Part shown: positions 25,849 through 47,732 of the stretch, piece by piece
Layout: every line of letters begins with the position of its first letter
How positions within the stretch are numbered: position 1 is the stretch's first letter
Origin: an uncultured virus (IMG/VR IMGVR_UViG_3300009177_000001)
Taxonomy: Duplodnaviria; Heunggongvirae; Uroviricota; Caudoviricetes
Length of the DNA: 54,466 nucleotides
Direction: 5' to 3' (one strand)
Virus record (IMG/VR): IMGVR_UViG_3300009177_000001
Position numbers and translations under genes: made by a program
Notes under the pieces: model-generated
What the model was told of the DNA's origin: nothing
Database searches by the model: none
What the model saw: the letters and a program-made list of their open reading frames with translations, nothing else

Positions 25849-25924
25849 GATGCCACCTCCTCGGGAGCGGGCCCCCCGAGCTGCTTTCTCGACCGCAGCC
25901 ACGACCGCGGTAGAGGTGGCGACC

Positions 25925-29904: not shown

Positions 29905-30113
29905 TTGAAGGCCACGCCGCATTCGAGTGGCTTACCCGTCGTCTTACTGCACTCGATGCGGGCCTGGTCACGTGCGCGCTCCACTTCCAGGCGCACACGG
30001 TCAGTCACGCTTCCGTCGCGGTAGCACTTCACGCCACCGAAGGTGAACACGCAGCACGCCAGCACCACGGCCACTGATATGATCGAAACTTGTTTGGTCT
30101 CCGCGTCCATCAC
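29901..30113 (-). CDS. Small membrane protein
   Basis: Single TM; coupled. Confidence 0.55.
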   Translation of the reverse strand: MMDAETKQVSIISVAVVLACCVFTFGGVKCYRDGSVTDRVRLEVERARDQARIECSKTTGKPLECGVAFK

Positions 30114-32263
30114 AGCTCCTCCAGCCTCTCATACGGCTTCTTCGCGTAGATCAAGTCCCGCACGCGCACCTGCAGGTCTGGGTCTGTCTTGTGATCCTGC
30201 GCCGGCGTCTCCATGTTGTAGACGTAGAGCTGCTGCGGGATGTAGACCGCGCGCTCGCACGCCATCTCCAGGATCGGCAGCATCAGCGCCACGTCTCCTG
30301 CTGTCGTGAACCACTTCCCCTCGTGCTGAAAGTCCTCTGGGTTGATCCGATAGAACAGCTCCACACGAAACGTCTTCGGGTGCGAGCACCGCCACGGGAA
30401 CTTGCGAAAGGCGCCGGCGCGTGCCACCTCGATCGGGTAGGGCGCCATCCAGCTCGGCTTCCCCGTAGGGAACACCTCGAAGTTGCCGTAGGTGCACCAG
30501 GCGCCGTTAGCGTACGCCACGTCGAGTGTCTGCAGCGCGTTGACGCCGTTGATTGAATCTGCTAGCCAATCGTCACCGTCCACGATCACGACGACGTCGC
30601 CGGGCTTGCCGTGCACGCGAATGGCGTCGGAGATGTTCCACAGCGAGTGCCGACGCTGCCCACGCCGCTCGACCCTGAAGCACCGACTGCGCACCGGGCC
30701 GAGCGTGCGGAAGAACGCGTCGATCTCGTCCGGCGTCTTGTCCGTCGATGCGTCGTCGATCACCACGCACAGCAACGGGCTCGTAGAGGGCCACGTGTGC
30801 CCGCGGTATTGCGCTTCGATCGACGTCAGGCAGGTGTTGATCCACTTCTCGGCGTTCCGGCACGGCACCACGATGAGGAAACGCGTGGAGGGCTTGCCGG
30901 GTAACAGCTTCGGATGCGCCTCGGCGCGAAGTGCATCGAAGCGGGCTAGCGTCGCATTCGTGATCAGCGGCGTGCTTGTGTAGCGTGACGGCACGGGGTT
31001 GAGCGCAAGTGCCGCCTCGTACCAGTGCACGCCTTCCTCAACGTGTCCCCGCTCCACCTCGGTCTCGCCCAGCAGCAGCATCGCTGGTGTCCGCGCGCCA
31101 TCCTGCAGGCTCCGCAGTGCCCACACCGCGGCCTCGTCGAGCTTGCCGGCGCGGTAGTACCCCTGCGCGAGCCCGAGCGCGAGCGCCGCACGGTCATCGC
31201 CGTACGCGGGACCCGACGGCAGGCGCTGACGAATCTCGGTGATCAGTGGCTCAGCGATGTCGAACCGGTTGGCCGCGAGCGCTTGCTGCGCGCCCACCAT
31301 CTCGTAGGAGATGTCCGGGGGCTGCGGCGTGCGGGCGGGCAGCTGCAGCACGAGATCGATGAACTGCTGCGAGAGCTTCGCGGCGTCGAGATGCTGTTCG
31401 ACGTAGGCGCGGTATTCGTGGGAGTCGAAGGAACTGCCGTAACGGGGCGGCAGGACCATGTGTTCGTCCAGCTCATCGCAACCACGCCACAGCCACTTCC
31501 CGGGCCAGTTGGTCGCCGTTCCCGGCGCGTAGTGGATCAGCGGCTTGCAGCCCATCGCCATCCCCTCCGCGATGGAGTAGCCGAGTGTTTCCCAGATCGA
31601 CGTCGACAGCACGTAGCTCGCGTCGACTTCATCGAGCCACGTGGCTGGATCGACGTCGCCGTGGATCGTGACGTTGGCAGGCTTCACGTGCTGCAGGTAG
31701 CGCACGAGCCGCGGATTCTGCTCGCCTAGCGCGGTGGTGATGTGCAAGCTGACATCTTGTCGCGTGCGCGCCCACTCCAGCGCGAGCTGGTAGCCCTTGT
31801 CTGCCGTCGCGCGCGCCACCAGCGCCACGATGTTGTTCGGCTCGCGCTTCTTGAACGTGAACCGTTCGAGATCCACGCCGCTCGGGATCACGTGTGAGCG
31901 AAACCCCCGTAGCGCGGGTAGCCGCTCCTGCTCCACTAGCTCTTGCAGAAACTGGCTCTCGTACACGAGCGCGTCGACGTTCTCCCACGCGAGCTTGTCG
32001 AGCGGTCCCCACACGTCGTAACCGCGCATGCGGATCACGAGGCGCTTGCACGCTCCCGAGCGTGCGGCGGCGAACGCCAGCTCGTTGCACCATTCGGTGA
32101 TCACTACGTCGGCTTCGGCACACGCGTGCGCGTCGAAGTCTCCGTGGATGGTCGCGGTATGCCCCTGCTCGACGAGGCGCTTGATGAGCGGCCGGGAGAA
32201 GTGCGCGGGCTCGCCTGGTCCGTGATCGGCGACGGCCGTGGAATCGAGGAAGATGAAATGCAT
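30110..32263 (-). CDS. GT4-TPR-GT2 fusion glycosyltransferase
   Basis: ETLGYSIAEGMAMG (GT4); central TPR-like helices; VVPCRNA, IDDASTD, VDGDD (GT2). Confidence 0.85.
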   Translation of the reverse strand: MHFIFLDSTAVADHGPGEPAHFSRPLIKRLVEQGHTATIHGDFDAHACAEADVVITEWCNELAFAAARSGACKRLVIRMRGYDVWGPLDKLAWENVDALVYESQFLQELVEQERLPALRGFRSHVIPSGVDLERFTFKKREPNNIVALVARATADKGYQLALEWARTRQDVSLHITTALGEQNPRLVRYLQHVKPANVTIHGDVDPATWLDEVDASYVLSTSIWETLGYSIAEGMAMGCKPLIHYAPGTATNWPGKWLWRGCDELDEHMVLPPRYGSSFDSHEYRAYVEQHLDAAKLSQQFIDLVLQLPARTPQPPDISYEMVGAQQALAANRFDIAEPLITEIRQRLPSGPAYGDDRAALALGLAQGYYRAGKLDEAAVWALRSLQDGARTPAMLLLGETEVERGHVEEGVHWYEAALALNPVPSRYTSTPLITNATLARFDALRAEAHPKLLPGKPSTRFLIVVPCRNAEKWINTCLTSIEAQYRGHTWPSTSPLLCVVIDDASTDKTPDEIDAFFRTLGPVRSRCFRVERRGQRRHSLWNISDAIRVHGKPGDVVVIVDGDDWLADSINGVNALQTLDVAYANGAWCTYGNFEVFPTGKPSWMAPYPIEVARAGAFRKFPWRCSHPKTFRVELFYRINPEDFQHEGKWFTTAGDVALMLPILEMACERAVYIPQQLYVYNMETPAQDHKTDPDLQVRVRDLIYAKKPYERLEEL

Positions 32264-32266
32264 GGG

Positions 32267-32551
32267 CTACTTTCTTGGCTTGCGCCGCTGCGGTCCGGGG
32301 AACGGCCGATCGAAGCGCGGCTCGTCGATGAGACGGACGAGCTTTTTGACCGCGTACGCGCGCGAGTCGTGCGTGCTGATGAACGCGCCGGTCAAGCCGT
32401 AGATCCGCCATCTGCCGATCGGACTCCAGCGCACGGAGGCGTGACCGTTCGGTGCGTGCACACGCTCATACGTTCCCCACCAGCCCTCGGGGAGACCGAG
32501 CCGGCGCTCAGCCTTGCGCACGGCCTTGGACACGAACTCGTCGCGGGTCAT
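32267..32551 (-). CDS. Hypothetical protein
   Basis: TGATG-coupled start. Confidence 0.5.
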   Translation of the reverse strand: MTRDEFVSKAVRKAERRLGLPEGWWGTYERVHAPNGHASVRWSPIGRWRIYGLTGAFISTHDSRAYAVKKLVRLIDEPRFDRPFPGPQRRKPRK

Positions 32552-32910
32552 CAGACGGGTGCTCCGCCACACTTCGCGCACAGCAGCGGTGGATCGGCGT
32601 CGCGCTCCAGCATGAGCGCGTGGCACCTGTGGCATTTCGCCGAATGGATACCAAGCGTCTTGAGCCCTTCGAGCAGTTTTGCGTCCGCCACGACGCTGGC
32701 GCCGCCTGCCAGGTTGCGCAGCTCTGCCATGGCTTGATCGATCCGTGCCGTGTTCTCCGTGCGCTCGACGCGTTCTTTTTCCAGCGCTTCTTGATCAGCC
32801 GCGAAGTCCGCGTTTCGCTCCCGGCGACTGATTTCCAGCGATCGCCAGACGAGGTACAGTCCGCTGAAAGTGATCACAGCGTGGATGAGAATCGCGAGCT
32901 GCGTGAGCAT
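32551..32910 (-). CDS. N-anchored protein with C-terminal zinc ribbon
   Basis: TM, coiled coil, CHRC...CAKC. Confidence 0.6.
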   Translation of the reverse strand: MLTQLAILIHAVITFSGLYLVWRSLEISRRERNADFAADQEALEKERVERTENTARIDQAMAELRNLAGGASVVADAKLLEGLKTLGIHSAKCHRCHALMLERDADPPLLCAKCGGAPV

Positions 32911-32961
32911 AGAATCGGATGATGCTGGACAGCTGGCAGAGTGTCAAGGCATGCTCCGCGC

Positions 32962-33897
32962 ATGACCACCTTCGCCCTCGTAGGAGCCGCCGGCTTCGTC
33001 GCCCCCCGCCACCTGCAGGCCATCCGCGACGTCGGCGGAGAGCTTGTCGCCGCGCTCGACCCGCACGATTCCGTCGGTGTGCTCGACCGCTACGGCTTCC
33101 GGAACGCGGACTTCTTCACGGCGCCCGAGCGCTTCGAGCGCCACCTAGCGAAGATGGCCCACACCAAGCCTCTCGACTGGCTCGTCGTGTGCTCGCCGAA
33201 CTACCTTCATGACACGCACATCCGAATGGGGTTGAACGTCGGTGCACAGGTGCTCTGCGAGAAGCCGCTGGTGCTGACGCCGGCGAACCTGGACGAGCTG
33301 TATGGCGCCGAAGCGCGGCTGGCCGAGGCGGGGCTTTTCAACCAGTACAAACCAGCGCCGTTCGACGCGCACAAGCCGCGGGTGTTCACCGTGCTGCAGC
33401 TGCGCCACATGCCGCAGCTGCAGGAGTTGCACGAAGACCGGAAGGCGCGTGCACATCTCCCCTACATCGATGACGTCGAGCTTGTCTACGTCACTCCTCG
33501 CGGGCGCTGGTATGACCATACGTGGAAGGGCGATCCGGCGAAGTCCGGTGGGCTCATCGTGAACATCGGAATCCACATGCTCGACCTGCTCGTGTGGATC
33601 TGGGGACCGCCACCCAAGACGTTGATGTTCGACGAGATCACCTGGGACGACTACGACGAGGAGAAGCGCGAGCACACGGGACAGATCCGACTCGAACACG
33701 CGCGGGTGAAGTTCCGCCTATCCATAAGTGGTGAGACTGCCGCGCGCCGCCTTGTTGCTAACGGGCGCGAGATCGACTTCACCACGGGCTTCGAGAACCT
33801 GCACACCACGGTCTACCGCGAGACGCTCGCCGGACGGGGCCACACCATCGCGGATGCGCGGCCGGCGATCGAGCTGGCGTGGCGGCTACGGAGGTGA
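32962..33897 (+). CDS. wbpB: Gfo/Idh/MocA oxidoreductase, WbpB/WlbA-like UDP-GlcNAcA 3-dehydrogenase
   Basis: FALVGAAGFVAPRHLQAI, DPHDSVG, CSPNYLH, CEKPLV, WKGD..KSGG...NIGIH..D. Confidence 0.85.
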   Translation: MTTFALVGAAGFVAPRHLQAIRDVGGELVAALDPHDSVGVLDRYGFRNADFFTAPERFERHLAKMAHTKPLDWLVVCSPNYLHDTHIRMGLNVGAQVLCEKPLVLTPANLDELYGAEARLAEAGLFNQYKPAPFDAHKPRVFTVLQLRHMPQLQELHEDRKARAHLPYIDDVELVYVTPRGRWYDHTWKGDPAKSGGLIVNIGIHMLDLLVWIWGPPPKTLMFDEITWDDYDEEKREHTGQIRLEHARVKFRLSISGETAARRLVANGREIDFTTGFENLHTTVYRETLAGRGHTIADARPAIELAWRLRR

Positions 33898-34847
33898 AGT
33901 TCTGCCTCAAGCCGTTCGAGCACATGGAGATCGTGCCGAACGGGAACGTGCACCTGTGCTGCCCGCAGTGGATGCCCACGCCGGCGGGGCACGTCGACGA
34001 TGAAGACGCGTGGAACGGCGAAGGTGCAAACGAGATCCGGAACTCGATCATCGACGGGAGCTTTCGCTTCTGCACCGGTTGTCCGTGGCTCGCGGACGCC
34101 ACGGGGCCTGTGCACGTGCTCAAGAAGACGATCAAGCTGCCGGTCATGCTGCCCCGGATCCCCGTGCTCAACCTCGCCTACGACAAGACCTGCAACCTGG
34201 CGTGCCCGAGCTGTCGAACGGAGCACATCGTCGCCAGCGACATCGAGCGCCGCCATCTGGCACGCGTCCAGACACGCGTGATCGAGCTGCTGCCGCGTGT
34301 GGACCAGCTCTACGTGACCGGTAGCGGTGACCCCTTCGCGAGCGCCACGTACCGCGAGCTGTTGCGCTCGATCGACCCGGCGAAGTACCCACGGCTCGCG
34401 GTCAAGCTCCACACGAACGGGCTCTTGTTCACGAAAGAGAACTGGCAGGCGCTCGGGCCCATACGTGAACGCGTGCGCGAAGTCGAGGTGTCGGTGGACG
34501 CCGCATGCGCCGAGACCTACGCGGTGAACCGCAGGGGAGACTGGACGACGCTCTGTGCAAACTTGGCCTTCATCGCAGGGCTGCGCCCCGTTCTCCGTCT
34601 GCAGCTCTCGTTTGTTGTACAGCAGAACAACTGGACCGAGATGCACGCTTTTCTTTTGCTGGCCAGCATCGTGAACGCCACGCACGTCTACTTCATGGGG
34701 ATCAACGACTGGAAGACCTTCTCACCGGAGGAGTACCGCCAGCGAGCGGTGCACCTGCCTGGTCACCCAGATCACAACGCGTTCAAGGCGATGCTGCGCG
34801 ACCCGATGTTCCACCAGGCGGGCGTGTCACTGGGGAATCTCGTCTAG
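33894..34847 (+). CDS. Radical SAM protein with N-terminal SPASM-like Cys cluster
   Basis: CNLACPSC (CxxxCxxC), GSGDPF, HTNG; N-terminal C...G.V.LCC...C..C. Confidence 0.85.
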   Translation: MKFCLKPFEHMEIVPNGNVHLCCPQWMPTPAGHVDDEDAWNGEGANEIRNSIIDGSFRFCTGCPWLADATGPVHVLKKTIKLPVMLPRIPVLNLAYDKTCNLACPSCRTEHIVASDIERRHLARVQTRVIELLPRVDQLYVTGSGDPFASATYRELLRSIDPAKYPRLAVKLHTNGLLFTKENWQALGPIRERVREVEVSVDAACAETYAVNRRGDWTTLCANLAFIAGLRPVLRLQLSFVVQQNNWTEMHAFLLLASIVNATHVYFMGINDWKTFSPEEYRQRAVHLPGHPDHNAFKAMLRDPMFHQAGVSLGNLV

Positions 34848-35419
34848 CCCTTACAGAACGAACCGGCCTTCGCGAAGCACCCGCACGCTGCCGTGCCGTC
34901 GCTCTGCATGTAGCAGCCCGCGGTGAGCGTCTGGCCGCTACAGCCCTGGCAGCAGTCGATCGCCTTCACCACGCACGCCCCCTGCGCGCAGTAGTGGTTG
35001 TCGATCATGCCGCTGTCGTAGCACGTTCCGCCGCCGCACGGGATGTTGTCGCCCGCCGGTACCACGTAGCCGCCGACGCACGTGTTGCACGAGTCGTTGG
35101 GCCGGTCGCAGCACATGCCAGCCGAAGCGCCTTCCTCACGCGTGCACACGCCGCTGCCGCACTGACCGTTCTCCGTGCAGCCGGAGCCTAGAGGCCGCGT
35201 CGGGGGCGCGTCAGCGGCATCAGGCGCCACGGCGGTGTCCAGTGGCAGCGTTGCATCCGTGCTGCCGCCGTCTGGATGGCCACGAACCGGAGCACCGACG
35301 TCGTCAGCGTAGGCATCGTATGCGCCGAAATGGTTGGCGTCCGTGCACCCGGTGAGAATCGCCGAGACAATCACCACAAACCCTACCGTGATGGCCATCA
35401 GTTGCAGAAGAGCGCGCAT
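34844..35419 (-). CDS. Cys-rich lipoprotein
   Basis: Signal peptide with LTGC lipobox, DA-rich linker, Cys-rich domain. Confidence 0.7.
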   Translation of the reverse strand: MRALLQLMAITVGFVVIVSAILTGCTDANHFGAYDAYADDVGAPVRGHPDGGSTDATLPLDTAVAPDAADAPPTRPLGSGCTENGQCGSGVCTREEGASAGMCCDRPNDSCNTCVGGYVVPAGDNIPCGGGTCYDSGMIDNHYCAQGACVVKAIDCCQGCSGQTLTAGCYMQSDGTAACGCFAKAGSFCKG

Positions 35420-35431
35420 GATAGAACCTCC

Positions 35432-35881
35432 TTACAGCCCGAACACCAGCAGGTTGGTCTCGCGGACGTGCGCATCGTGAAGCGCTTGCGCTTCCTTGGC
35501 CACGCTGTCGGCGACTTCGCGATCCGCTTCCGTGATGACGTTGTTCTCGATCAGCCTGTCGACGAGCGTCGTCCAGTCGAGGTGCTGCTTCGCGATCAAA
35601 CGCTGCTCGTGCGTGCTCGCGCCGGCCTCGACGATCTCGGTGGCACGCGGGCTCTCCGCCCCAGGCAGCCGCCAGAATTTCCCCTGCTTTTCGTAAGGCA
35701 TGAACCCGGCGGCGAGTTCGCCTAGCGTCTGCGCCGCCTGGTTCACCCACTCGAAGCCAGCTTCGCCTACGCGTGAGACCTTGCACGTGACCCACACGAT
35801 CGCGGGGCCTCCGACGTGCGCGATCTCGACGCGCGGATCCGCTTTCAACTGTTCTCGTACCGTGCTTGTCGTTTCCATCAC
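35432..35881 (-). CDS. Hypothetical protein
   Basis: GGAGG RBS. Confidence 0.65.
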   Translation of the reverse strand: MMETTSTVREQLKADPRVEIAHVGGPAIVWVTCKVSRVGEAGFEWVNQAAQTLGELAAGFMPYEKQGKFWRLPGAESPRATEIVEAGASTHEQRLIAKQHLDWTTLVDRLIENNVITEADREVADSVAKEAQALHDAHVRETNLLVFGL

Positions 35882-35926: not shown

Positions 35927-36087
35927 GCGCGCGGGAGTCGGCGAGGAAACACGCCAATGCCGCCCACCGACTCCCGCTGCGCGACGAACCGAAAGAGGCC
36001 CCAGAATCCCGGCGCCTCCGCCGGAGCGAACACGAAGAGCGGGGGGACGAGGGGGGAGGGCGGAGGGGGCAGGCTCTTCGTATTCGC
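35927..36087 (-). ncRNA. Putative structured antisense-type RNA (three hairpins)
   Basis: Two 15-bp stems whose imperfect positions are G-U only on the minus strand; loops are antisense to the early-gene start motif and C-rich. Confidence 0.6.
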
Positions 36088-36101
36088 GCGAATCCTCTAT
36101 C

Positions 36102-37049
36102 TTACTGCACCTCCTCGTCGCTGGTCACGAGCGCCGCCGCCGTGATGTCCGACCGCAGTACCTCAACGCGCGTCTTGATGGTGTCCATGCTGACGCCCAG
36201 CAGCTCTTCGTAGGCCGCCACCTTCGCGAGCACGGCCTCGCACGTCGCCGTGCGCGTCGCCAGCGCTCGCTTGCCGAGATTCCCACCCTGCAGCTCCGCC
36301 TCGATCCCCTGCGCGGCGTCGCGCGCTTCCGTGATGACCGCGTCCAGGATGGCCGCCACGGCCTCGTCGTTGCGCATGGCCGGGATGCGGAACACGAGGT
36401 GCGAGCTGGCCGCCTCGACCGCGGTGGCGATCTTGCGCCAGATCTCCACGTTGGTGCGCGGCACGAAGTAGATGCCGCCGCTGTCGCGGAGGGCGACGGC
36501 GCCGAGCTTGCGTGCATGCCGCACGAGCCAGCTGGAGATGTCGTTCGAGTCGATGGCGCCGAGGTGGTGCTGCACCGACGTCTCCAGTGTTCGCTCGATG
36601 AGTCCGTGCTCACTGTCAGTGGCCTCGACCGCGGTCACGGCGGGAATCTTGTTCTCGCGGAACGCCACCTGCACCAGCCGGCGGTACGTCGGGGGCGAGT
36701 CCTCCCCGATCACCTTGCCGTCCTTGTCGCGCGGCGCCGGGATCACCGTCTCTTCGACGATGGCCCATGCCCCCTGCCGGGCCAGGGTGGTCACGAAGCG
36801 CCGCTTCCCCTGCGCGTTGCGGTGGGTCTGCTGGTCGGCGACTGCTCGGCCGCAGGCGACGATCTCGCTGGTGGGCGTCGGCAGCTGGTCGACGGCCAGC
36901 CCCTGCTCGGTCCACTTCTCGGCGAGCTTGACGAGGCTGATGGTGCCGCTGAGGCGCCAGTAGGAGACGGCGCCGGCGACGCCTTCGGCCTCCTTGGTGA
37001 CGACGAGGTTCTGGTGTCGATGATTCGGCGACTGCTGTTGCATGTTCAT
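36102..37049 (-). CDS. DUF3150-like helical protein accompanying AAA/VWA genes
   Basis: LRDSGGIYFVP motif; coiled-coil C-terminus. Confidence 0.6.
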   Translation of the reverse strand: MNMQQQSPNHRHQNLVVTKEAEGVAGAVSYWRLSGTISLVKLAEKWTEQGLAVDQLPTPTSEIVACGRAVADQQTHRNAQGKRRFVTTLARQGAWAIVEETVIPAPRDKDGKVIGEDSPPTYRRLVQVAFRENKIPAVTAVEATDSEHGLIERTLETSVQHHLGAIDSNDISSWLVRHARKLGAVALRDSGGIYFVPRTNVEIWRKIATAVEAASSHLVFRIPAMRNDEAVAAILDAVITEARDAAQGIEAELQGGNLGKRALATRTATCEAVLAKVAAYEELLGVSMDTIKTRVEVLRSDITAAALVTSDEEVQ

Positions 37050-37087
37050 GGCGTGTTTCCTTGTTGGAGTTGAACGGCTTCGAGGCT

Positions 37088-37585: not shown

Positions 37586-38154
37586 GTGTTCTTCTCCTCG
37601 TGGTACTGCTTGCGCCGCGCCGCCAGCTTCTCCCCGCGTTCGCCCAGCAACGCATCGAACACCGGCAGCGGATCGGCGTCGAGCGCGATGGCGGCAGCTG
37701 CCGATCGGAGCCACTGCACGCGACGTGCCTCGGGCAGGCGCATGAGCGCTTCGAGCATGAGCTTGAGGGTGTCAGGGACGTGGAAAGCTACTACCTGACG
37801 CACGAGCGCTGCTATAGCAGCGTCGCAGAAGGTGCCCCGGTGCACCGTCACAGCTGGTTTTCGGCTCCGTCCGTACACCGCCAGAGACCCCGCATGCAGC
37901 GTCACGGACTCGACGCCTTCAACCAACGGGACGTCAGCGGCGCGCAGGATCGGAAGCGTCCAGTGATCCGCCGCTGATCCGCTCACCCTAACCAGCCCAC
38001 GCGCACGCAGCTCCGCCATGTTCGCGTACGCCTTGTGCCGAGCCCCCCGCACGTGTCCGCCGATGCCTCGTGGATCGACGCCGTGCTCTTTGCAGACCGG
38101 GCAGATCCCGGTCTTGCGGATTTCGAGCACGGCGTCGAACCCCAGCGTGTTCAC
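37582..38154 (-). CDS. Protein with C2H2-like zinc finger
   Basis: CPVC...GHVRGARH. Confidence 0.55.
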   Translation of the reverse strand: MNTLGFDAVLEIRKTGICPVCKEHGVDPRGIGGHVRGARHKAYANMAELRARGLVRVSGSAADHWTLPILRAADVPLVEGVESVTLHAGSLAVYGRSRKPAVTVHRGTFCDAAIAALVRQVVAFHVPDTLKLMLEALMRLPEARRVQWLRSAAAAIALDADPLPVFDALLGERGEKLAARRKQYHEEKNT

Positions 38155-39458
38155 TGCGGGGCCTCCACGTGGATCACCTCGCCGTAGCGCGGCTTGAACG
38201 CCACGCGGTTGCCGCACACGCACCAGACCACCCGGTAGTGCGGCTCGATGTCCGGGTACCCGTCACCGATCTCCGCGTCGGTCAGCACCACGACCAGCTC
38301 GATCTTCGGTTGCCGCGCCGACAGGGCCTCGAAGCCCGGCGTGAGGATCGTGCTGCCGCCGCCCGTGAAGATCTCCGCGGCGTCGGCCAGCGACCGGCAC
38401 TCCTTGATGCCCTGCAGCTCCGCGTCCACGGTGCACACCGTGACCGTGGCGTTGACGGCGGCGAGAATGCCCTGCAGCTCGCTCGTAGCGGCCTTCACAC
38501 GCGCCCTGGACATCGAGCCCGACAGATCGATCAGCACCCCCACCTGTGGCACCGGCGCACGGTAGCTCGGCACGATCGGGACGCCGACGCCGTAGCCGAG
38601 ACCGCCCTGCCGCCTCGACGGCTTCGACCAGTCGAAATCGACGGCGCCGGGCCGATACGCCACCGCCGCGCGCACCACCGACGCGAGCTTGTCTTGCCAC
38701 GGCACCTGCGGAGGCGCGAGGAACTCCTCCGCCCAGCGGGCGAGCGACGCTGGCAGGAACCCTCGGCTCTGGCTGTCACGCGCCTCCTGCGCCTGCACCG
38801 CCTGCGCGACCTCGCGGCGGATCCGGTCCATCTCCGCCTTGGACCGGCCCTCGCCGCCGCCTTCGCCGTCCTTCTTGCCCGGCGGAGGTTCACCCGGCGC
38901 GGAATTGCCCGAGCAGCTGCCGCACCCGCCGCCACCACAGCGCGGGACCTTGATCGTCACGGTGTTCTTCTCGATCAGGCGATACCGCTCCTCGAACGTG
39001 AGCCCGAGCGGCTGGTGCAGCGTCTCCGGATAGCACCAGGTCTCCGGCGGCTGCTTGAGCTTGCGGATCTCCTCGTTGATGCACGCGTCCTCGGCTAGGT
39101 TGGCCAGCCGCCGCATCTCCTGCGGCACGCGCAGCGCCCGGCAACGCTCGTGGTGCTTGAGCACGACGTGCATGCACTCGTGGATGAGCCCGAGCGCGAG
39201 CGTCTCGGTCGGCGTGGTGCGCACGAACTCCGCCGCCCAGAACAGGATGCCGTCTTCCGTCACGGCGAGCGTCGGCGCCATCCCTTCGGCACGCATCGCC
39301 TCGACCATCGCCTCGGGCATCTCGCGGCGAACGAGACCACGCAGAACGGCGCCGAAGTAGGGCGCCCAGCCCGTGCGGGAGTCCACCACGCGAAGGATCG
39401 CGGCGGCGAGATTCTGCCGCACGGGTAGCGTCGGAGCTGCAGCAGCGGTGGCGGTCAT
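38151..39458 (-). CDS. DUF2201-type metallopeptidase-like + VWA domain protein
   Basis: HECMH (HExxH), NLAED..IN, DLSGSM (MIDAS), GGGST, VLTD. Confidence 0.85.
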   Translation of the reverse strand: MTATAAAAPTLPVRQNLAAAILRVVDSRTGWAPYFGAVLRGLVRREMPEAMVEAMRAEGMAPTLAVTEDGILFWAAEFVRTTPTETLALGLIHECMHVVLKHHERCRALRVPQEMRRLANLAEDACINEEIRKLKQPPETWCYPETLHQPLGLTFEERYRLIEKNTVTIKVPRCGGGGCGSCSGNSAPGEPPPGKKDGEGGGEGRSKAEMDRIRREVAQAVQAQEARDSQSRGFLPASLARWAEEFLAPPQVPWQDKLASVVRAAVAYRPGAVDFDWSKPSRRQGGLGYGVGVPIVPSYRAPVPQVGVLIDLSGSMSRARVKAATSELQGILAAVNATVTVCTVDAELQGIKECRSLADAAEIFTGGGSTILTPGFEALSARQPKIELVVVLTDAEIGDGYPDIEPHYRVVWCVCGNRVAFKPRYGEVIHVEAPQ

Positions 39459-40603
39459 CGCAGCCCCGCGGCGGTCAGCATGTCGAGGATGCGGTTCTTG
39501 CCACCACCGAGCTTCACCCACGCCGAGTTCTCGCCCATCTTGATGGCACCGGCCTTGATGATCTGGCGCGCCACGGGAACCACGAGATCGGCGGCGTCCT
39601 CCATCAGCGTGTCGAGGAATTTGACGAGCACCTCGCCACGGTCCTGCCGGCGCACCGACTTTTCGGGGATGATCGTGGCGGCGCACGCACCGAGATGCGC
39701 GAGCGTGCGATCGAGCCGCCGGTGGTCGTGAATGAACTTGGCCTTGCCGTCGAGGAACGCCGCCGGGTCCGGGAGATCCGCGTCGAGCGACCACTTGCGG
39801 TACTCGCTCACCCAGCCGAGCCCGACGAAGCCGGCGATCAGCGTGTCGGCGTCCGACTCGGAGAGCCCATGCACATCGGCGGCGGCGATCGCCAGCGATG
39901 CGTACTCGCACGTGCGGGGTGTCGGGAACGCCTTGTCCGTCGAGCCCTTCGGAGGCCGCTTGTCGAGCAGCTCCGGGCGGCGCGTGATGAACCCAGACAC
40001 CATACCGCGCGCCTTGGCGACCGCGCTGGGCCACGCGGCGTCCACGCGCGCCTCGATGTCCGCTGCGGTGTTGGCGCCCGTGTTGGCCTCCGCGGCGAAC
40101 CCGCCGAGCAGCGCGCCGGCCCACTCTTCGGTGCTGTAGCCCTCGAACTCCAGGTGACAGAACCGATTGAGGATGTCGGGGCGCAGCTCCCACGTCCCCG
40201 CGACGCCGTTAGCCGCCGCCATCACGCGGGTGCTCTTCGAGAACTGGTGGCTGCCGAGGATGCGCAGCTGCACCATCCCGAGCAGCGGGGGCTGCAGCGC
40301 GAGCGGCACCGAGTCGACCTCATCCAGGAAGAGCAGGCTGGGGCGCGCGTCCACGTCCTGCGCCCAGACCGGCGGGGGGTAGTGCAGAAAGCCGTCCGAG
40401 CCCGGAACCGGCACAACGCCGAACTGGCCCTCGCCGCGCTCGCTGGGCGCCAGGCGGTAGTGGTAGAGCCCACAGGCGTTGGCGGCGGCGCGCGCGGCGG
40501 CGGTCTTGCCTGTCCCCGACTTGCCCCAGAGCAGAATCGGTGCACCCTTGGGGCCCTCGGGCATCGGGATGAAAAAAGCGGCGCGAAGAACATCGGTGAG
40601 CAT
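39455..40603 (-). CDS. MoxR-like AAA+ ATPase
   Basis: GKSGTGKT Walker A, LLFLDE Walker B, AAAN, NRF, TPR. Confidence 0.85.
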   Translation of the reverse strand: MLTDVLRAAFFIPMPEGPKGAPILLWGKSGTGKTAAARAAANACGLYHYRLAPSERGEGQFGVVPVPGSDGFLHYPPPVWAQDVDARPSLLFLDEVDSVPLALQPPLLGMVQLRILGSHQFSKSTRVMAAANGVAGTWELRPDILNRFCHLEFEGYSTEEWAGALLGGFAAEANTGANTAADIEARVDAAWPSAVAKARGMVSGFITRRPELLDKRPPKGSTDKAFPTPRTCEYASLAIAAADVHGLSESDADTLIAGFVGLGWVSEYRKWSLDADLPDPAAFLDGKAKFIHDHRRLDRTLAHLGACAATIIPEKSVRRQDRGEVLVKFLDTLMEDAADLVVPVARQIIKAGAIKMGENSAWVKLGGGKNRILDMLTAAGLR

Positions 40604-40676
40604 TGGCGTGTTTCCTTTGTTTTGGGTTGAACGGTTCGGCGGGGGCTTCTGCAGTTCGCGTGCCGACCGCGCCGCT

Positions 40677-41039
40677 TCAGCCTTTCGACGGAGTGTGAAC
40701 TTCGGATACGGGCGCCTCGTTCACGGTGTTGCTCGGCCACCACGCCCCTGCAACCTTCAGCGCCGCCTCCAAGCCGTGCTCACGGAGCGCCTGAAGTGCC
40801 TGCGAGTACGCGGGAGCCATGTCGCGCAGAACAGCATCCGTAACCGGTCCTGTGCCTCCGTGCTTGCGCCAGCTTACGATGGGTGAGAGCCCTAGCATCA
40901 TGCGGCAGCTCTCGTCGAACAGATCGGCCTTCCGGCTACGCACCGCGTACGCTATCGCGCGCAGCACGAGAAGTGGATGGCGTTCGCCCGCGTCGAGCAA
41001 GCGCTGGAAGCGCTTTCCGTATTCTTCGCTGCGCTTCAT
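40677..41039 (-). CDS. Hypothetical protein (paralogue A)
   Basis: ERHPLLVLRA motif. Confidence 0.6.
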   Translation of the reverse strand: MKRSEEYGKRFQRLLDAGERHPLLVLRAIAYAVRSRKADLFDESCRMMLGLSPIVSWRKHGGTGPVTDAVLRDMAPAYSQALQALREHGLEAALKVAGAWWPSNTVNEAPVSEVHTPSKG

Positions 41040-41344
41040 GTCGTTCCCTCTTTCGTCTCGGTGTTGCGCTGGCGCCACGCTCTGACCGCTTCAGCGAAAG
41101 CCGGCGCAGCAGAGCGCAGGCGGGCGGGAAGCTCGGCGAGAGACCCGTGCATAACGTCTGCAGCTGCCACGGGTTCGAACGCCAGCCGGAGCAGAAGCAC
41201 GGCGTTGCTTCCATCCAGTGCGCTGAACCGGCCTTGACGCAGCAAGCGGCTCATAGCTCGCAGCACAAGCCACGGGTGTCTCTCGGCGGCTGAAAGCAGC
41301 AGCGCCCATGCCTTTTCCGCGCTTGCCCTTGCAGTAGCTTCCAT
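41036..41344 (-). CDS. Hypothetical protein (paralogue B)
   Basis: ERHPWLVLRA motif. Confidence 0.6.
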   Translation of the reverse strand: MEATARASAEKAWALLLSAAERHPWLVLRAMSRLLRQGRFSALDGSNAVLLLRLAFEPVAAADVMHGSLAELPARLRSAAPAFAEAVRAWRQRNTETKEGTT

Positions 41345-41346
41345 GT

Positions 41347-41532
41347 TCAGTTCACCGCCTTTTTCTTTGTCACGCACGTCGCGCAGTACAGCTCGTCGTC
41401 GATCTCCTCAACCCCCTCGAAGCAGCATTCTGCCGTGGAGCACTCCCCGGGGCACTTCTCCTCCGTGTCGGCACCGTCCTCGTGGAACGAGCACCGTTCG
41501 GTGTCGGTGCAGATCAGCCGGATGATAGCCAT
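41347..41532 (-). CDS. Small Cys-rich acidic protein
   Basis: First gene after leftward sigma-54 promoter. Confidence 0.6.
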   Translation of the reverse strand: MAIIRLICTDTERCSFHEDGADTEEKCPGECSTAECCFEGVEEIDDELYCATCVTKKKAVN

Positions 41533-41772
41533 TTTTGGCGTGTCTCCCTTTCGTGCTGGACATCCAGCATACCGCGTGCCGAGGCGATCGGAGCGAATCT
41601 AGGCTTGCGCGATAAGAGGAGAGGCCCCCTGAGGGTGTATCGGTGACGTCACAGGGTGTGGCGCAGGTAGGTGAGGTGAAAACGCCACGGTCGGGTGAAG
41701 GGAGCTGGCAGCTCGATCGGACAAGGATGGCATGGGGTATGCTGGACAGCTGGCAGGAAAGGAGACACGCCA

Positions 41773-41961
41773 ATGAAAAAGATCGATGGTTGTGACACGC
41801 TGACGGTGCAAGAGCTGATCGAGCGGCTCGCGGCTCTTCCCGGCGATATGCCTGTCATGTTCTCGTACTACGAGGGCTGGTCCACCGTTTCCGCCTGCGC
41901 GGCGCCCCCCGCACAGAGCGCCCTGCCGGCCATCGTTTTGTCCGGCGAGTATGTGGGCTAG
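41773..41961 (+). CDS. Small phage protein
   Basis: LTVQELIERLAALPGDMPV motif; RBS. Confidence 0.65.
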   Translation: MKKIDGCDTLTVQELIERLAALPGDMPVMFSYYEGWSTVSACAAPPAQSALPAIVLSGEYVG

Positions 41962-41965
41962 CCAA

Positions 41966-42367
41966 ATGGCCACCGCCGACACCACCTACCAGGGCTGGAC
42001 CAACTACTCCACGTGGGCCGTCGCCCTCTGGATCGACAACGACGAGCCCCTCTATCGGGCGTCCCGCCGGCGGGCCGCATGGATACACAAGGACGCGCAC
42101 GCCTGTGACGGCGGGGCACACGTGCTGGCCGACAACGCCACGCCCAGCATCTGCGAGAACTGCTCGGTGCTGATGTCGTCGTCCTGCGAGCCGCTACAGA
42201 CGCCCGCGGAGCACGAGGTGTCGACGCTGGCCGATGGGCTCAAGGCATGGCTCACCGAGAAGGCCCCGGAGCTGGGCGGCACGGTCTGGTCCGACCTGCT
42301 CGGCCATGCGCTGGAGGCCGTCAACTGGCACGAGATCGCCAAGCACGTGCTGGAGGAGCTGGAGTAG
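41966..42367 (+). CDS. Conserved phage early protein (YxGWxNYxTW family)
   Basis: YQGWTNYSTWAVALWIDNDEPLY...VNWHEIA. Confidence 0.7.
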   Translation: MATADTTYQGWTNYSTWAVALWIDNDEPLYRASRRRAAWIHKDAHACDGGAHVLADNATPSICENCSVLMSSSCEPLQTPAEHEVSTLADGLKAWLTEKAPELGGTVWSDLLGHALEAVNWHEIAKHVLEELE

Positions 42368-42414
42368 GCTTGGCACGTCTTCTGCTGGACAGCTAGCATC
42401 AGGAGGACACGCCA

Positions 42415-42816
42415 ATGACCAACATGAACGGCCGCACCCCGGAAGAGTTCGCCGCCGCCGGCATCGCGCTCGACGTCGCCTACGACTCCACGTGCGGTTC
42501 GGAGTGGCTCCGCCGCGTCCACGCGGACCTGCCCTACAAGGCCCCTGTGGCGCGCGCCGGCGCGTGGGCCTACAACCCGATGGCGCACGAGAACCAGCGC
42601 GTTCTCCGCGTCGTGTGGGACGCCGGCATCCCCGGCTGCTGCCGCAGCGGCTGGCGCTACCACATGCCGGGCTACTCGGCCTTCGACGCGATCTCGCTGA
42701 CGGACTACCCGGATGCGCCGTTCGTCACGTACGTCGAGACGGCTCCTGGGGGGCACTGCTGGCGCCGCGACCGGGTGATCACGCGTGAGGAGGCGCTCGC
42801 CAGCGCCACGGTGTGA
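42415..42816 (+). CDS. Hypothetical protein
   Basis: AGGAGGACACGCCAATG start. Confidence 0.7.
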   Translation: MTNMNGRTPEEFAAAGIALDVAYDSTCGSEWLRRVHADLPYKAPVARAGAWAYNPMAHENQRVLRVVWDAGIPGCCRSGWRYHMPGYSAFDAISLTDYPDAPFVTYVETAPGGHCWRRDRVITREEALASATV

Positions 42817-42923
42817 ACCAGCGGCACGTGCCTGGCGCTCACGGTTCGGTGGGCGCCAGGCACGGTGCGGGGGGAGCGCGGCGGCACGCCAGGTGCAGAA
42901 GGACCCGAGCGGAGGACACGCCA

Positions 42924-43361
42924 ATGAGCCAGACCCGAGTTCGCATCCAGCACCTCAACGCCTTTCTTCGCCCCGTCACCAGCACCGGGGAGCCGGTCGG
43001 TCACGCCTTCACCGTGCCGGTGACGACCACCGGGAAAGCCGACATGGGCGCCGAAGGGTGCATCGTCTCCGTGGAGGTCATCTTCAGCGCACCGAACGGG
43101 CAGATCACGCCGGCCATCGAGTGGTTGCCTGTGCAAGCGCTCGCGGATGGCGACGAGCCGTACTTTCCGCATCCTGCGCCTGCGCTCATCGTGGACACGC
43201 GCGTGCGGCACGCACACGATGGCCGACAGGGCCGGATCGTGGAGACGTCGCGGTACGCACCTGATGTCGTGCGGGTGCTGTGGGACGGCTCGGACAACCT
43301 GGACGACGCCGAGCCCGTCAACGTGAAGATCCTCACGGCGGCCTCGGGCGCCACAGTGTGA
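42924..43361 (+). CDS. Hypothetical protein
   Basis: GGAGGACACGCCAATG start. Confidence 0.7.
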   Translation: MSQTRVRIQHLNAFLRPVTSTGEPVGHAFTVPVTTTGKADMGAEGCIVSVEVIFSAPNGQITPAIEWLPVQALADGDEPYFPHPAPALIVDTRVRHAHDGRQGRIVETSRYAPDVVRVLWDGSDNLDDAEPVNVKILTAASGATV

Positions 43362-43441
43362 ATTTTCGCCACGTGACCGCCGCGCACAGAAGTGCTAAGT
43401 GCGCGGCGGTCGCGGGCGGAACCCAAACGAAAGGACCAATC

Positions 43442-43681: not shown

Positions 43682-43686
43682 CCCCG

Positions 43687-43974: not shown

Positions 43975-44015
43975 GCACGCTACCTGCAGAGGCGATCAGG
44001 CTGGAGGACACGCCA

Positions 44016-44477
44016 ATGAAACTCACCCACCAGATGCAGCGGGTGCTCGACATCATCCGCACCGAAGGTTTCGCCGCCGCCGGCACGTACGTCGTGCCCG
44101 GCTGCGCATCGCGCGGCGAAGACATTGCGGCCAGCACGCTCAAGGCGCTCGAAGCCCGTGGTCTGGTCGAGCTGTACACGCACCAAGACGGCGTGCTGGC
44201 CGCGCGGCTGGCCGAGGCGCCTGGGGCGCTGCTGCCCATGCAGCCACCGGCCAAGACCAAGCTCTGGCTCGTCACGTTCGCCACCATCCAGCGCACGCAG
44301 ACGGCCGTGAGCCTCGGCGCCACGGCGGAAGAGGCCATCGATCGCATCCGCAAGTCGTGCGCGCCTGCAGGTGACCGCTGGGCTGCAGGCTCTGGCGTGC
44401 GCGGGTCGGTGATGCGCGAGAGCACGCCGCGCTTTACCGCCACGGAGATCACCGAAGGGTGGAGGTACGTGTCGTGA
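44016..44477 (+). CDS. Hypothetical protein, possible N-terminal winged helix
   Basis: KLT..MQRVL...STLKALEARGLV. Confidence 0.65.
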   Translation: MKLTHQMQRVLDIIRTEGFAAAGTYVVPGCASRGEDIAASTLKALEARGLVELYTHQDGVLAARLAEAPGALLPMQPPAKTKLWLVTFATIQRTQTAVSLGATAEEAIDRIRKSCAPAGDRWAAGSGVRGSVMRESTPRFTATEITEGWRYVS

Positions 44478-45146: not shown

Positions 45147-45739
45147 TGGCTCGATGTACCGGACCGTTGCAGACCTGTCGCTGTACCTATCACACGCGCT
45201 GGCGGCGCTTTATGGAGGCCGCTTCGGGCCTCTCTACGCACGCCGCTGCTGTGCTCATGGGGAACCATGGGACACGCGGCGTCAACTGGCGGGGGTGCGG
45301 TAAGAAGTACATGGCCGACATCTTCGCGGCGCAACAGGAGCATCGCATAGACGACGCTGTGATCGACGTGCTCCGACGCGCGCCGCGCGTGGTGCGGCAT
45401 CCGCCGAGGCCAGCGGCGCCGAAGCCCCCGTCGCGGTTCGATCAGCGCGAGCACGCGAAACGCCACCCGACCGTGCGCGGCTGGGCCATCGACCACGCCA
45501 ACGCCGTTCCGCACGACGCGGCCGTGGCGTGGAGTTCACAGGGTAGCGCCGACGCCACGGTTGCTTTCACGGTCATCCGCATGACGGACGACTTGTCGCT
45601 GCGTGTGACGGTCCCCGTGCCCTACGCCGTGCGGCTGTGGCAGCAGCTCGGCGACATCCTGCGCGCACACAAGGCCATCCGGGGCGGAACCGGGCACGTG
45701 ATCTGCAAGGAGCTGTCGCCAGGAGGAACACGCCAATGA
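45146..45739 (+). CDS. Hypothetical protein
   Basis: GGAGG RBS; TAATG coupling. Confidence 0.55.
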   Translation: MARCTGPLQTCRCTYHTRWRRFMEAASGLSTHAAAVLMGNHGTRGVNWRGCGKKYMADIFAAQQEHRIDDAVIDVLRRAPRVVRHPPRPAAPKPPSRFDQREHAKRHPTVRGWAIDHANAVPHDAAVAWSSQGSADATVAFTVIRMTDDLSLRVTVPVPYAVRLWQQLGDILRAHKAIRGGTGHVICKELSPGGTRQ

Positions 45740-46505: not shown

Positions 46506-46714
46506 AAACCAAGCACACCCACAAGTGGCGCGTCTACAGCACAGCGCTATGCCCCAGCCCAGCGATCAGCGTTGGTTGCGCGTGCGGTGCTGACGGCTGG
46601 ATCGGCCGGCGCGACTTCGAACAATCCGATTGGAACCGCGCCTTCCACGCGCCGAGCCGCTCGTATCCGCTGCGCAAGGGGTTGGTACCGTACGTGCACG
46701 TGAGCAAGCAGTAG
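46502..46714 (+). CDS. Hypothetical protein
   Basis: GAGG RBS; coupled. Confidence 0.55.
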   Translation: MKTKHTHKWRVYSTALCPSPAISVGCACGADGWIGRRDFEQSDWNRAFHAPSRSYPLRKGLVPYVHVSKQ

Positions 46715-46727
46715 AGGAGAACACGCC

Positions 46728-47732
46728 ATGGCCCGCACGAAGTACCGCAACACGCAGTTCAAGACCGAGTCGCTTGCACGCATCAAGCAACTGCAGACGA
46801 TCGTCGACGAGTATCAGAAGCAAGGGCTCACGCTCACCGCGCGCCAGCTTTACTACCAGTGCGTTGCGCGCGCGTTGATCCACAACAACGACAAGGAGTA
46901 CAAGCGCATAACGGCCTTGCTCACGGACGCGCGCTACGCCGGCATGATCGACTGGGACGCGATCGAGGACAGGGGCCGCGAGCCGAGCACGCCCAGTCAG
47001 TGGAGCGATCCTGCGGCGCTGATGGAGTCCGCGCTTCGCGCCTACCGGCTGCCGCGCTGGGAAGGGCAGGAACGCTACGTCGAGCTATGGGTGGAGAAGC
47101 AAGCGCTTGCCGGTGTGCTCGAACCCCTTGCGCGCGAGCATCACGCCACACTGCTCGTGAACAAGGGCTACGGTTCGGCCAGCTCGATGAAGGAGGCTGC
47201 CGAGCGTATCAAGAAGGCGCAGGTGCTCGACCAAGAGCTGTTCGACGACATCCGGACGCGGCTCGAACGCTCGGATGATCTCGACGAGGGGACCGAGGAG
47301 CGCCGCGAAGCCAAGGAGTTCATGCGCTTGAATATCGAGGGCGCCATCCGCACGCCGGTGATCTTGTACCTCGGCGACCACGATCCCAGCGGCGAGGACA
47401 TGGTGCGCGACATCGGCGAGCGCCTCAAGGAGTTCGGTGTGCTCTGGCTGCAAGTGGAGAAGGTGGCGCTCACGATGGCACAGGTGAAGCGCTATAACCC
47501 ACCGCCGAACCCGGCGAAGATCACCGACCCGCGCGCCGACGCCTACCGCGCGAAGTTCGGCGACAGCTCGTGGGAGGTGGATGCGCTACCGCCGGACGTG
47601 CTGCGCCGGATCATCCGCCAGGCGTTCGCGAAGCACATCGACACGGCGAAGGTCGCGGCCGTCAAGGCGCGCGAGGAGGCCGACAAGGCGGAGCTGCGGA
47701 AGGCCGTGGCTTCGATCATGGAGAAGCGCTGA
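46728..47732 (+). CDS. Toprim-domain protein of Topo VI-A/Spo11/JetD-like type
   Basis: TARQLYY (wHTH Tyr), VELWVEK, NKGY, YLGDHDPSG (DxD), WEVDAL. Confidence 0.8.
   Translation: MARTKYRNTQFKTESLARIKQLQTIVDEYQKQGLTLTARQLYYQCVARALIHNNDKEYKRITALLTDARYAGMIDWDAIEDRGREPSTPSQWSDPAALMESALRAYRLPRWEGQERYVELWVEKQALAGVLEPLAREHHATLLVNKGYGSASSMKEAAERIKKAQVLDQELFDDIRTRLERSDDLDEGTEERREAKEFMRLNIEGAIRTPVILYLGDHDPSGEDMVRDIGERLKEFGVLWLQVEKVALTMAQVKRYNPPPNPAKITDPRADAYRAKFGDSSWEVDALPPDVLRRIIRQAFAKHIDTAKVAAVKAREEADKAELRKAVASIMEKR

What the first reader, a model, noticed from the sequence alone, without database searches (positions are those of the whole stretch)
35927..36087. Intergenic hairpin RNA displaying the antisense of a start-codon motif shared by nine early genes
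Seen: on the minus (operon) strand, 35931-35977 folds into a 15-bp stem with loop CGGCAUUGGCGUGUUUC. Bases 35944-35960 are a 17-nt exact complement of the AAA-ATPase RBS/start (AGGAAACACGCCAAUGC) and a near complement of eight other early-gene starts. A second 15-bp stem (36026-36087) presents a ~32-nt C-rich loop containing anti-SD-like CCCUCC. Imperfect stem positions are G-U pairs only on the minus strand, which supports that strand. Known: UUGGCG/CGCCAA loop pairing is used in plasmid R1 CopT/CopA antisense control, and C-rich loops are used by RBS-targeting sRNAs such as RNAIII. Inference: a virus-encoded one-to-many antisense regulator that shuts off a whole early regulon at translation, embedded in the transcript it regulates.
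Basis: partly seen in the sequence, partly recalled or inferred. Interest (0 to 1): 0.9.

Follow-up and report, generated by a model that had tools for sequence, protein, structure and literature searches.

The report
Phage antisense hairpin against gene starts
An uncultured bacterial virus marks nine of its own genes with the same short tag over the ribosome-binding site and carries one RNA hairpin whose tip mirrors that tag; related viruses change tag and tip together, so the hairpin most likely switches that gene set off by base pairing, which has not yet been tested.

Summary
A minus-strand hairpin (35931-35977), just after an AAA-ATPase/VWA/DUF6744 operon, has at its apex the complement of a motif covering the Shine-Dalgarno and start codon of nine phage genes on both strands. 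Three distant relatives (DUF6744 38-43% identical) keep a hairpin at or near the same place, with unrelated stem sequences, the same YUGGCG apex, and a guide matching their own start motifs. The base before ACGCC is C in 9 of 9 window targets (loop G) and A in 15 of 16 targets of the relatives (loop U). A fifth virus pairs a UUGGC loop with a different leader. The C-rich second hairpin is not conserved and has no specific target. No expression data were available. Best reading: one phage RNA represses translation of a tagged, probably early, gene set (RNA pairing about 0.85, repression about 0.65). It works like P1/P7 C4 RNA but is not a C4 or Rfam member. The single reversed start-associated sequence (SAS) of mycobacteriophage Anaya also lies in a hairpin loop, so the unexplained SAS question becomes testable in cultured phages. 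This scan noted similar architectures on other DNA (16 unchecked notes).

The parts
35931..35977 (-). Guide hairpin: 15-bp lower stem (two G-U pairs, extendable by a few pairs), weak upper stem, UGGC apex. The conserved element.
   Evidence: same architecture in L002, L003, L004, L052
35944..35960 (-). Guide: 17 nt exactly complementary to the Shine-Dalgarno-to-start region of the AAA ATPase; 10-18-bp helices with all nine targets
35952..35957 (-). Seed UUGGCG at the hairpin apex (fits YUNR, a recalled U-turn pattern); invariant as YUGGCG in 4 of 4 viruses
36026..36087 (-). Second hairpin with a 32-nt C-rich loop; lineage-specific, no specific target found
35992..36024 (-). Middle hairpin between the two; no counterpart at this site in relatives
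40600..40618 (-). Target 1: start of the AAA ATPase, first gene of the operon that ends in the hairpin (18-bp helix, best match)
37047..37062 (-). Target 2: start of DUF6744 (13 bp); no sigma54-like site upstream
41530..41552 (-). Target 3: start of a 61-aa ORF (14 bp)
41761..41775 (+). Target 4: start of a 62-aa ORF (16 bp)
42401..42417 (+). Target 5: start of a 133-aa ORF (13 bp)
42911..42926 (+). Target 6: start of a 145-aa ORF (13 bp)
44003..44018 (+). Target 7: start of a 153-aa ORF (13 bp)
45721..45738 (+). Target 8: start of a 131-aa ORF (14 bp)
46713..46730 (+). Target 9: start of a 334-aa protein matching phrog_6247 'DNA topoisomerase' (10 bp); no sigma54-like site upstream
40651..40664 (-). 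sigma54-type promoter-like site (GG-N10-GC; consensus recalled) before the AAA operon, the presumed source of the transcript that carries the hairpin. Six more such sites precede targets, at -41580, +41729, +42372, +42883, +43974, +45693
39455..40603 (-). AAA ATPase, 382 aa (PF00004, phrog_1297)
38151..39458 (-). DUF2201 metallopeptidase/VWA-like protein, 435 aa
36102..37049 (-). DUF6744 protein, 315 aa; last gene before the hairpin region
34844..35878 (-). Two genes after the hairpin (148 aa unknown; 191 aa lipoprotein-like by inspection); they lack the motif

Best explanation
The hairpin is the working part of a phage-encoded base-pairing RNA at the 3' end of the leftward AAA-VWA-DUF6744 operon. 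Its apical UUGGCG makes a first contact with CGCCA(A) in the short leaders of nine phage mRNAs. The weak upper stem then opens and a 10-18-bp helix covers the Shine-Dalgarno sequence and, in most targets, reaches the start codon, which blocks ribosome loading; the strong lower stem stays shut as a scaffold. Because the RNA is made at the far end of an operon whose first gene is its best target, it forms a delayed negative feedback that shuts the tagged gene set after a burst, or keeps it silent in a lysogen or carrier state and against superinfecting relatives with a matching tag. Shown by computation: complementarity, apex position, strand bias, conservation and co-variation. Inferred: expression, release or stability of the RNA, repression, timing.
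For: (1) Four distinct viruses (window/L052, L002, L003, L004) each have 5-9 tagged starts and one antisense copy at a hairpin apex after DUF6744, with unrelated stems of 13-18 pairs. (2) Of 259 seed-like sites in 2.72 Mb, 17 lie in a stem of 10 or more Watson-Crick pairs, and all 17 are copies of these four elements. (3) The base before ACGCC is C in 9 of 9 window targets against loop G, and A in 15 of 16 targets of relatives against loop U. Mean unbroken helix: window guide 13.8 bp on its own targets and 6.4-9.2 on the others; the relatives' guides 14.0-15.6 on their own and 6.0-7.4 on the window's. (4) L025 has the same architecture with a different guide, a 14-nt exact complement of its own DUF6744 leader. 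(5) The nine tagged starts rank within the top 12 of 3046 candidate start windows. Binding stays at -13.8 to -23.3 kcal/mol after the cost of opening the hairpin. (6) G-U pairs favour the operon strand in 3 of 4; L003 has a perfect stem and is neutral. (7) L001 and L008, with AAA proteins 50-51% identical, lack both tag and hairpin.
Against: No transcript, processing or repression evidence. Only two or three independent co-varying events are sampled, and L002/L003/L004 guides cross-pair: the L002 guide gives 15.4 bp on L004 targets and 14.0 on its own. The ranking is partly circular because the targets were defined by the motif. Target seeds are only 21-54% unpaired in predicted folds, and target opening was not charged. 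L052 has the window's G-type loop yet carries one A-type tagged start; L003 has one C-type start. No consistent terminator or internal promoter defines a small RNA: a U-run follows the stem directly only in L004, and no sigma54-like site precedes the window's hairpin. Mycobacteriophages Pixie and TM4 have 18 and 10 SAS copies but no antisense loop in the regions read, so start tags can exist without such a loop.
Confidence: 0.65

Rival explanations
1. Pairing is real but mainly in cis: the 3' end of the operon mRNA folds back on its own AAA and DUF6744 starts (autoregulation), and the other tagged genes carry the motif because promoter-leader cassettes were duplicated.
For: The best helices are with the operon's own AAA start in the window (18 bp) and L003 (17 bp); in L025 the only target seen is its DUF6744 start. 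Upstream sequences of several tagged genes are near-copies of one another.
Against: Divergent-strand genes keep 13-17-bp complementarity in all four viruses. In the window, purine changes opposite the guide's U-run mostly keep pairing as G-U. Promoter and tag are separable: 49082 has the promoter-like cassette without the tag, while 46728 and 37049 have the tag without it. L025 is a 21% complete fragment.
Confidence: 0.12
2. The hairpin is the sensor, not the regulator: binding of any tagged mRNA switches termination or translation of the genes downstream (attenuator, or activation as with a pseudoknot switch).
For: U-runs and the next gene's ribosome-binding site lie within about 0-40 nt of the stem in all four; a lipoprotein-like gene follows directly in L002-L004. 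An RNA pseudoknot is the translation switch of ColIb-P9 repZ (reference title).
Against: Forcing the guide open leaves the lower stem intact and the accessibility of the downstream Shine-Dalgarno unchanged in 4 of 4 (a simple equilibrium model). The targets sit exactly on ribosome-binding sites, which a sensor would not need.
Confidence: 0.1
3. The motif is a site for a protein (DNA operator near the transcription start, or an RNA-binding translational regulator) and the reversed copy is one more site or an accident.
For: The motif lies within about 20-45 nt of sigma54-like sites at 7 genes. Cluster K SAS motifs were left open as protein or RNA sites, and Pixie and TM4 have SAS without an antisense loop.
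Against: It does not explain why the single reversed copy is centred at a hairpin apex in 4 of 4 viruses with unrelated G-U-containing stems, why L002's copy matches its targets through a G-U pair, or why L025 repeats the layout with another sequence.
Confidence: 0.09
4. The copy at 35944-35960 is simply the tagged start of a 62-aa plus-strand gene (35957-36145).
For: In the window and L052 the copy is followed by ATG and an open frame of 62 codons.
Against: In L002, L003 and L004 the same strand has no start codon after the motif. The frame runs through two hairpins and has no PHROG match.
Confidence: 0.02

Closest known systems
C4 antisense RNA of phages P1/P7 (passages of PMC5320573); P4 CI RNA recalled
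   Same: Phage RNA cut from a larger transcript; a loop pairs with and occludes ribosome-binding sites of phage genes; a few guide changes separate related phages.
   Different: C4 has three stem-loops, two guide loops and RNase P processing. Here one hairpin with one guide faces 5-9 scattered genes on both strands. No Rfam match.
Start-associated sequences (SAS/ESAS) of Cluster K mycobacteriophages (PMC3203893 section 15 part 1; PMC11373665 and PMC12699233 passages)
   Same: A private motif that includes the Shine-Dalgarno but extends beyond it, at many non-structural gene starts, in one orientation, often behind a promoter cassette, with one reversed copy in K1 phages. That copy lies in a predicted hairpin loop in Anaya, CrimD, Amelie and (one change) Hammy.
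   Different: Unrelated sequence and host group. SAS function is still called ill-defined in 2024 and unverified in 2025. Pixie, Keshu and TM4 lack the antisense loop in the regions read. The SAS loop has no UUGGCG seed.
Kissing-loop plasmid antisense systems (ColIb-P9 Inc/repZ, IncB/K RNAI; passages and reference titles in PMC10724649 and PMC3753616; R1 CopA/CopT recalled)
   Same: UUGGCG apex pairing with CGCCAA; bulged upper stem that can open after the first contact.
   Different: Those RNAs are fully complementary countertranscripts of one replication gene. Here the partner sites are many, short and distant.
3'-UTR-derived, multi-target bacterial sRNAs (own knowledge) and phage sRNAs reviewed in PMC12197685 (parts 1-2 of 6)
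   Same: Located after a stop codon; short seed; many targets at translation starts.
   Different: In the parts read, the multi-target phage sRNAs act on host RNAs (DicF, VpdS in part) and the self-targeting ones act on single genes (sar, OOP, aQ). None read uses a shared tag built into a phage gene set.

Membership tests
C4 antisense RNA / any Rfam family | Match to a covariance model at the gathering score | tested here: not met
   0 matches in the whole window; best at this site Chloroflexi-1, 20.3 bits against a cut-off of 80; only a tRNA in 5 other loci
C4 antisense RNA | Three stem-loops with two guide loops | tested here: not met
   Only one hairpin with one guide is conserved
C4 antisense RNA | Loop pairing that occludes ribosome-binding sites of phage genes | tested here: met
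   In silico only: 10-18-bp helices over Shine-Dalgarno and start
C4 antisense RNA | Release from the operon transcript by RNase P | not testable with these tools
   Needs RNA data
I-complex/R1 kissing-loop antisense RNAs | UUGGCG at the apex of a hairpin with a bulged upper stem | tested here: met
   UUGGCG in window, L003, L004; CUGGCG in L002; predicted folds
I-complex/R1 kissing-loop antisense RNAs | Countertranscript fully complementary to a replication-initiator leader | tested here: not met
   Targets lie 1-11 kb away and share only 10-18 nt
Cluster K SAS | Repeated asymmetric motif at starts of non-structural genes, beyond the Shine-Dalgarno, with one reversed copy | tested here: met
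   9 tagged starts plus one reversed copy; compare
Cluster K SAS | The published 13-bp consensus | tested here: not met
   The motif here is GG-purines-(C/A)-ACGCC-(A0-4)-ATG, unlike the consensus (compared by inspection)
RNAIII-type C-rich anti-SD loops | C-rich loop conserved and matched to specific ribosome-binding sites | tested here: not met
   Best partners are generic G-rich stretches with no gap in energy; no such loop in 6 loci of 3 relatives
3'-UTR-derived sRNAs | Ends in an intrinsic terminator shared with the mRNA | tested here: inconclusive
   U-run directly after the stem in L004, offset in L002 and L003, about 20 nt away in the window
3'-UTR-derived sRNAs | Distinct stable RNA, chaperone dependence | not testable with these tools
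   Needs RNA data

The most novel reading that the evidence does not exclude
Phages build whole regulons without a repressor protein: they write a private tag into the ribosome-binding sites of a gene set and encode one hairpin whose apex reads it. Guide and tag drift together and split related phages into exclusion groups. The same logic would explain the start-associated sequences of Cluster K1 mycobacteriophages, whose single reversed copy is the regulator.
Probability: 0.45. Interest if true: 0.88.

Novelty: new variant of a known kind. Interest (0 to 1): 0.74.

Why it matters
Phage temporal control is usually ascribed to proteins, and the phage antisense RNAs in the texts read act on one gene or one operon. 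A single roughly 55-nt hairpin controlling 5-9 dispersed genes through a shared start tag would be a compact RNA-only regulon, with naturally orthogonal guide/tag pairs (window versus L004) useful for synthetic biology. It also gives a concrete, testable hypothesis for the SAS motifs of Cluster K mycobacteriophages, unexplained since 2011, in phages that grow on a laboratory host.

Tried and rejected
No whole genome is held for the window. No RNA holder was listed among sequencing runs; this is no evidence either way, and no reads could be laid. Rfam gave nothing at the gathering score. RNAalifold on the four-sequence MAFFT alignment put the stems out of register and missed the hairpin, so it gave no usable pair counts; stems were compared one by one instead. 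A sequence-only model built from that alignment found only its four members and weak reverse matches to their own targets in 78 sources. DNA pattern scans of viral contigs (104 and 119 stretches) and three more protein scans found no further member of the ACGCC group. The first two energy matrices used a wrongly picked L003 guide and were redone. The loose motif-free scan was dominated by chance hits and its output was cut. In one search the L004 start was mis-picked. In one search the thresholds missed L002 and L004: 7 of 244 hairpins in 82 loci passed (window, L052, L003, L025, L336, plus L028 and L034, which I regard as chance), against 1 of 125 in 79 control loci. A looser seed scan gave 19 of 1709 sites, 17 of them copies of the known elements. 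A GGAGATAG start motif in L001/L008 has no reversed copy in a clear hairpin at the four places fetched. The sigma54-like pattern is not enriched overall (11 sites against 11 in the reversed control); only its position is significant. The tree is a quick tree, not the finished careful search.

Full report
Observation. The region 35927-36087 lies between the stop of a DUF6744 gene (36102) and the next minus-strand gene (35878). It folds far better on the minus strand (z -5.1, 0 of 200 shuffles) than on the plus strand (z -1.1). It holds three hairpins: a 15-bp stem with a 32-nt C-rich loop (36026-36087), a middle hairpin, and a 15-bp stem (35931-35977) whose top carries the guide. Bases 35944-35960 are the exact complement of the Shine-Dalgarno-to-start region of the AAA ATPase at 40603; 3 matches at up to 3 mismatches occur against 0.12 expected. 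The motif GG-purines-C-ACGCC-(A0-4)-ATG opens nine ORFs, six on the plus and three on the minus strand. Rfam has no match.

Setting. The window is viral: it encodes a tail-fibre-like protein, and three relatives are IMG/VR records with direct terminal repeats. The tagged genes lie in a divergent region around 41 kb. Leftward runs AAA ATPase, DUF2201 VWA/metallopeptidase, two unknown genes and DUF6744, then the hairpin. Rightward are small unknown ORFs and a topoisomerase-like gene. Seven of 11 sigma54-like sites in the window lie just 5' of a tagged start; random placement never gave more than 2 in 20,000 trials, although the pattern itself is not enriched. If these are promoters, the leaders are 16-36 nt long and the tag is most of the 5' UTR. 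'Early' is inferred from this layout. The host is unknown; DUF6744 relatives occur in Myxococcales, Deltaproteobacteria and Vicinamibacterales assemblies, among others. All 5 relatives tested encode a tyrosine recombinase, so a temperate or plasmid-like state is possible.

Relatives. DUF6744 searches returned 51 viral, 22 metagenome and 9 genome loci. L052 is a near-identical strain, with the 221-nt intergenic stretch unchanged but different gene cassettes in the variable region. Three distant viruses (L002, L003, L004; DUF6744 38-43%, AAA 51-53% identical) each have 5-6 tagged starts, including AAA and DUF6744, and one antisense copy at the apex of a 13-18-pair hairpin after DUF6744. In L003 it lies about 300 nt further on. 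The stems share no sequence; the YUGGCG apex is kept and centred. Of 259 seed-like sites in 2.72 Mb, the 17 enclosed by a strong stem are all copies of these four elements. In a quick 54-row tree the four lie in an 8-row clade with L001, L008, L054 and L074, which show no tagged set (L054 is only 2.9 kb). The whole records of L001 and L008 hold 1 and 3 pattern matches against 1 and 1 in the control. Tag and hairpin are thus present or absent together in this small sample.

Co-variation. The base 5' of ACGCC is C in 9 of 9 window targets, facing G in the loop, and A in 15 of 16 targets of the relatives, facing U. L004 has a four-base A-run in both tag and guide, L003 a five-base run. Mean unbroken helix lengths: window guide 13.8 bp on its own targets and 8.0, 9.2 and 6.4 on the others; the relatives' guides 14.0, 14.0 and 15.6 on their own and 6.0, 7.4 and 7.4 on the window's. 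Within the trio the discrimination is weak except for the L004 guide, and these are only two or three independent events. A motif-free scan of 51 loci added L025: a long hairpin about 4 kb downstream with a UUGGC apex and a 14-nt exact complement of its own DUF6744 leader, the seed now 5' of the Shine-Dalgarno. Exceptions exist: L052 carries one A-type start under a G-type loop and L003 one C-type start.

What does not hold. The C-rich loop has no distinct partner in the window and no counterpart in the relatives' loci. The 62-aa plus-strand ORF is not conserved. Opening the guide does not unzip the lower stem or change access to the downstream ribosome-binding site in 4 of 4, which weighs against an attenuator. 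No consistent terminator or internal promoter marks the ends of a small RNA, so the hairpin may act from the full operon mRNA or from a decay product.

Mechanism. Most likely the apex contacts CGCCA(A) in a tagged leader, the weak upper stem opens, and a 10-18-bp helix masks the Shine-Dalgarno and start codon. The nine targets rank in the top 12 of 3046 candidate start windows; the three interleaved windows overlap the same motifs, and the ranking is partly circular. Net binding is -13.8 to -23.3 kcal/mol after hairpin opening, target opening not charged. As the last part of an operon whose first gene is the best target, it would give delayed negative feedback on the whole set. In a lysogen it could also hold these genes off and exclude relatives with a matching tag. 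Pairing at the RNA level I put at about 0.85, translational repression of the set in trans at about 0.65. Expression, processing and effect are all inferred.

Comparison with what is known. It works like P1/P7 C4 RNA, a processed phage RNA whose loops occlude ribosome-binding sites (passages of PMC5320573), but it fails the structure and Rfam tests and faces many more genes. The apex equals the UUGGCG loop motif named for ColIb-P9 (reference titles only; kissing and interior-loop roles in passages of PMC10724649), but it is not a countertranscript. The tag resembles in kind the SAS of Cluster K mycobacteriophages, for which Pope et al. noted a single reversed copy in K1 phages and left the function open (PMC3203893 section 15 part 1); the role was still ill-defined or unverified in passages of PMC11373665 and PMC12699233. 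I tested this link. In Anaya the reversed copy lies in a predicted hairpin loop on the gene strand. The 161-bp region has matches in 138 phage records. Of 5 folded, Anaya, CrimD, Amelie and Hammy keep an anti-SAS loop over changed stems (z -1.4 to -3.5) and Keshu does not. Pixie and TM4 have SAS copies but no reversed copy in the regions read.

Novelty. Paper searches listed no description of a phage hairpin antisense to a shared start tag; the library holds open-access papers only, and I read listings for most hits. This scan's own notes list 16 similar findings on other genomes, 8 shown. They are unchecked and are not counted as support; I had reached the SAS link before reading them. No note matched this element or its proteins. 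Verdict: a real, conserved and co-varying element; a new variant of phage antisense control; interest 0.74.

Noticed in passing
window 40651-45706 and 49082; L003, L004: sigma54-type promoter-like sites (GG-N10-GC) before individual genes of the divergent region; 7 of 11 in the window precede tagged starts, 4 in L004, 1 in L003, none before L002's tagged starts. The only Sigma54_activat matches in 5 relatives are weak, partial and at the AAA ATPase locus.
   Followed up: partly
L202 31871-31883 (phage Anaya, record about 59,870): The single reversed SAS copy lies in a predicted hairpin loop, kept in CrimD, Amelie and Hammy but not Keshu or Pixie.
   Followed up: partly
L025 6080-6150 and 1110-1132: Long hairpin with a UUGGC apex and a 14-nt exact complement of that virus's own DUF6744 leader; different guide, same layout.
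   Followed up: partly
L336 about 8100-8135 and 8435 (minus strand): 12-bp hairpin whose loop is a 12-nt complement of a ribosome-binding site about 300 nt upstream on the same strand.
   Followed up: no
window 9709-9774, 14567-14603, 17449-17514, 25922-25987 (minus strand): Four copies of a conserved roughly 20-nt leader followed by a GC-rich hairpin and, in at least three, a U-run; in three the flanks pair into a longer stem. Possible late-gene terminators or processing sites.
   Followed up: partly
L137 and L138: Two other viruses with 6 starts each tagged by a similar GAAAGG-N-AACGCCA motif, several preceded by a repeated sequence resembling a hammerhead core (recalled; no Rfam match). Whole-record pattern matches were listed but not inspected for a hairpin copy.
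   Followed up: partly
window 41054-48569 versus L052: The tagged region is mosaic between near-identical strains (86-98% identity in blocks, extra cassettes in L052), and the added genes also carry the tag.
   Followed up: partly
window 4201-9747 (minus): 1848-aa collagen-repeat tail-fibre-like protein with an internal duplication of about 1.87 kb spacing.
   Followed up: no
window 24041-34847 and 3088-4185: Glycosyltransferases, a radical SAM/SPASM protein and a Gfo/Idh/MocA oxidoreductase, suggesting sugar modification of virion or DNA.
   Followed up: no
window 52101-52175 (minus): tRNA-Met (CAT) gene.
   Followed up: no
window 36041-36072 (plus strand): The complement of the C-rich loop has several G-runs and could form a G-quadruplex; unique in the window's minus strand as a C-rich stretch.
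   Followed up: no
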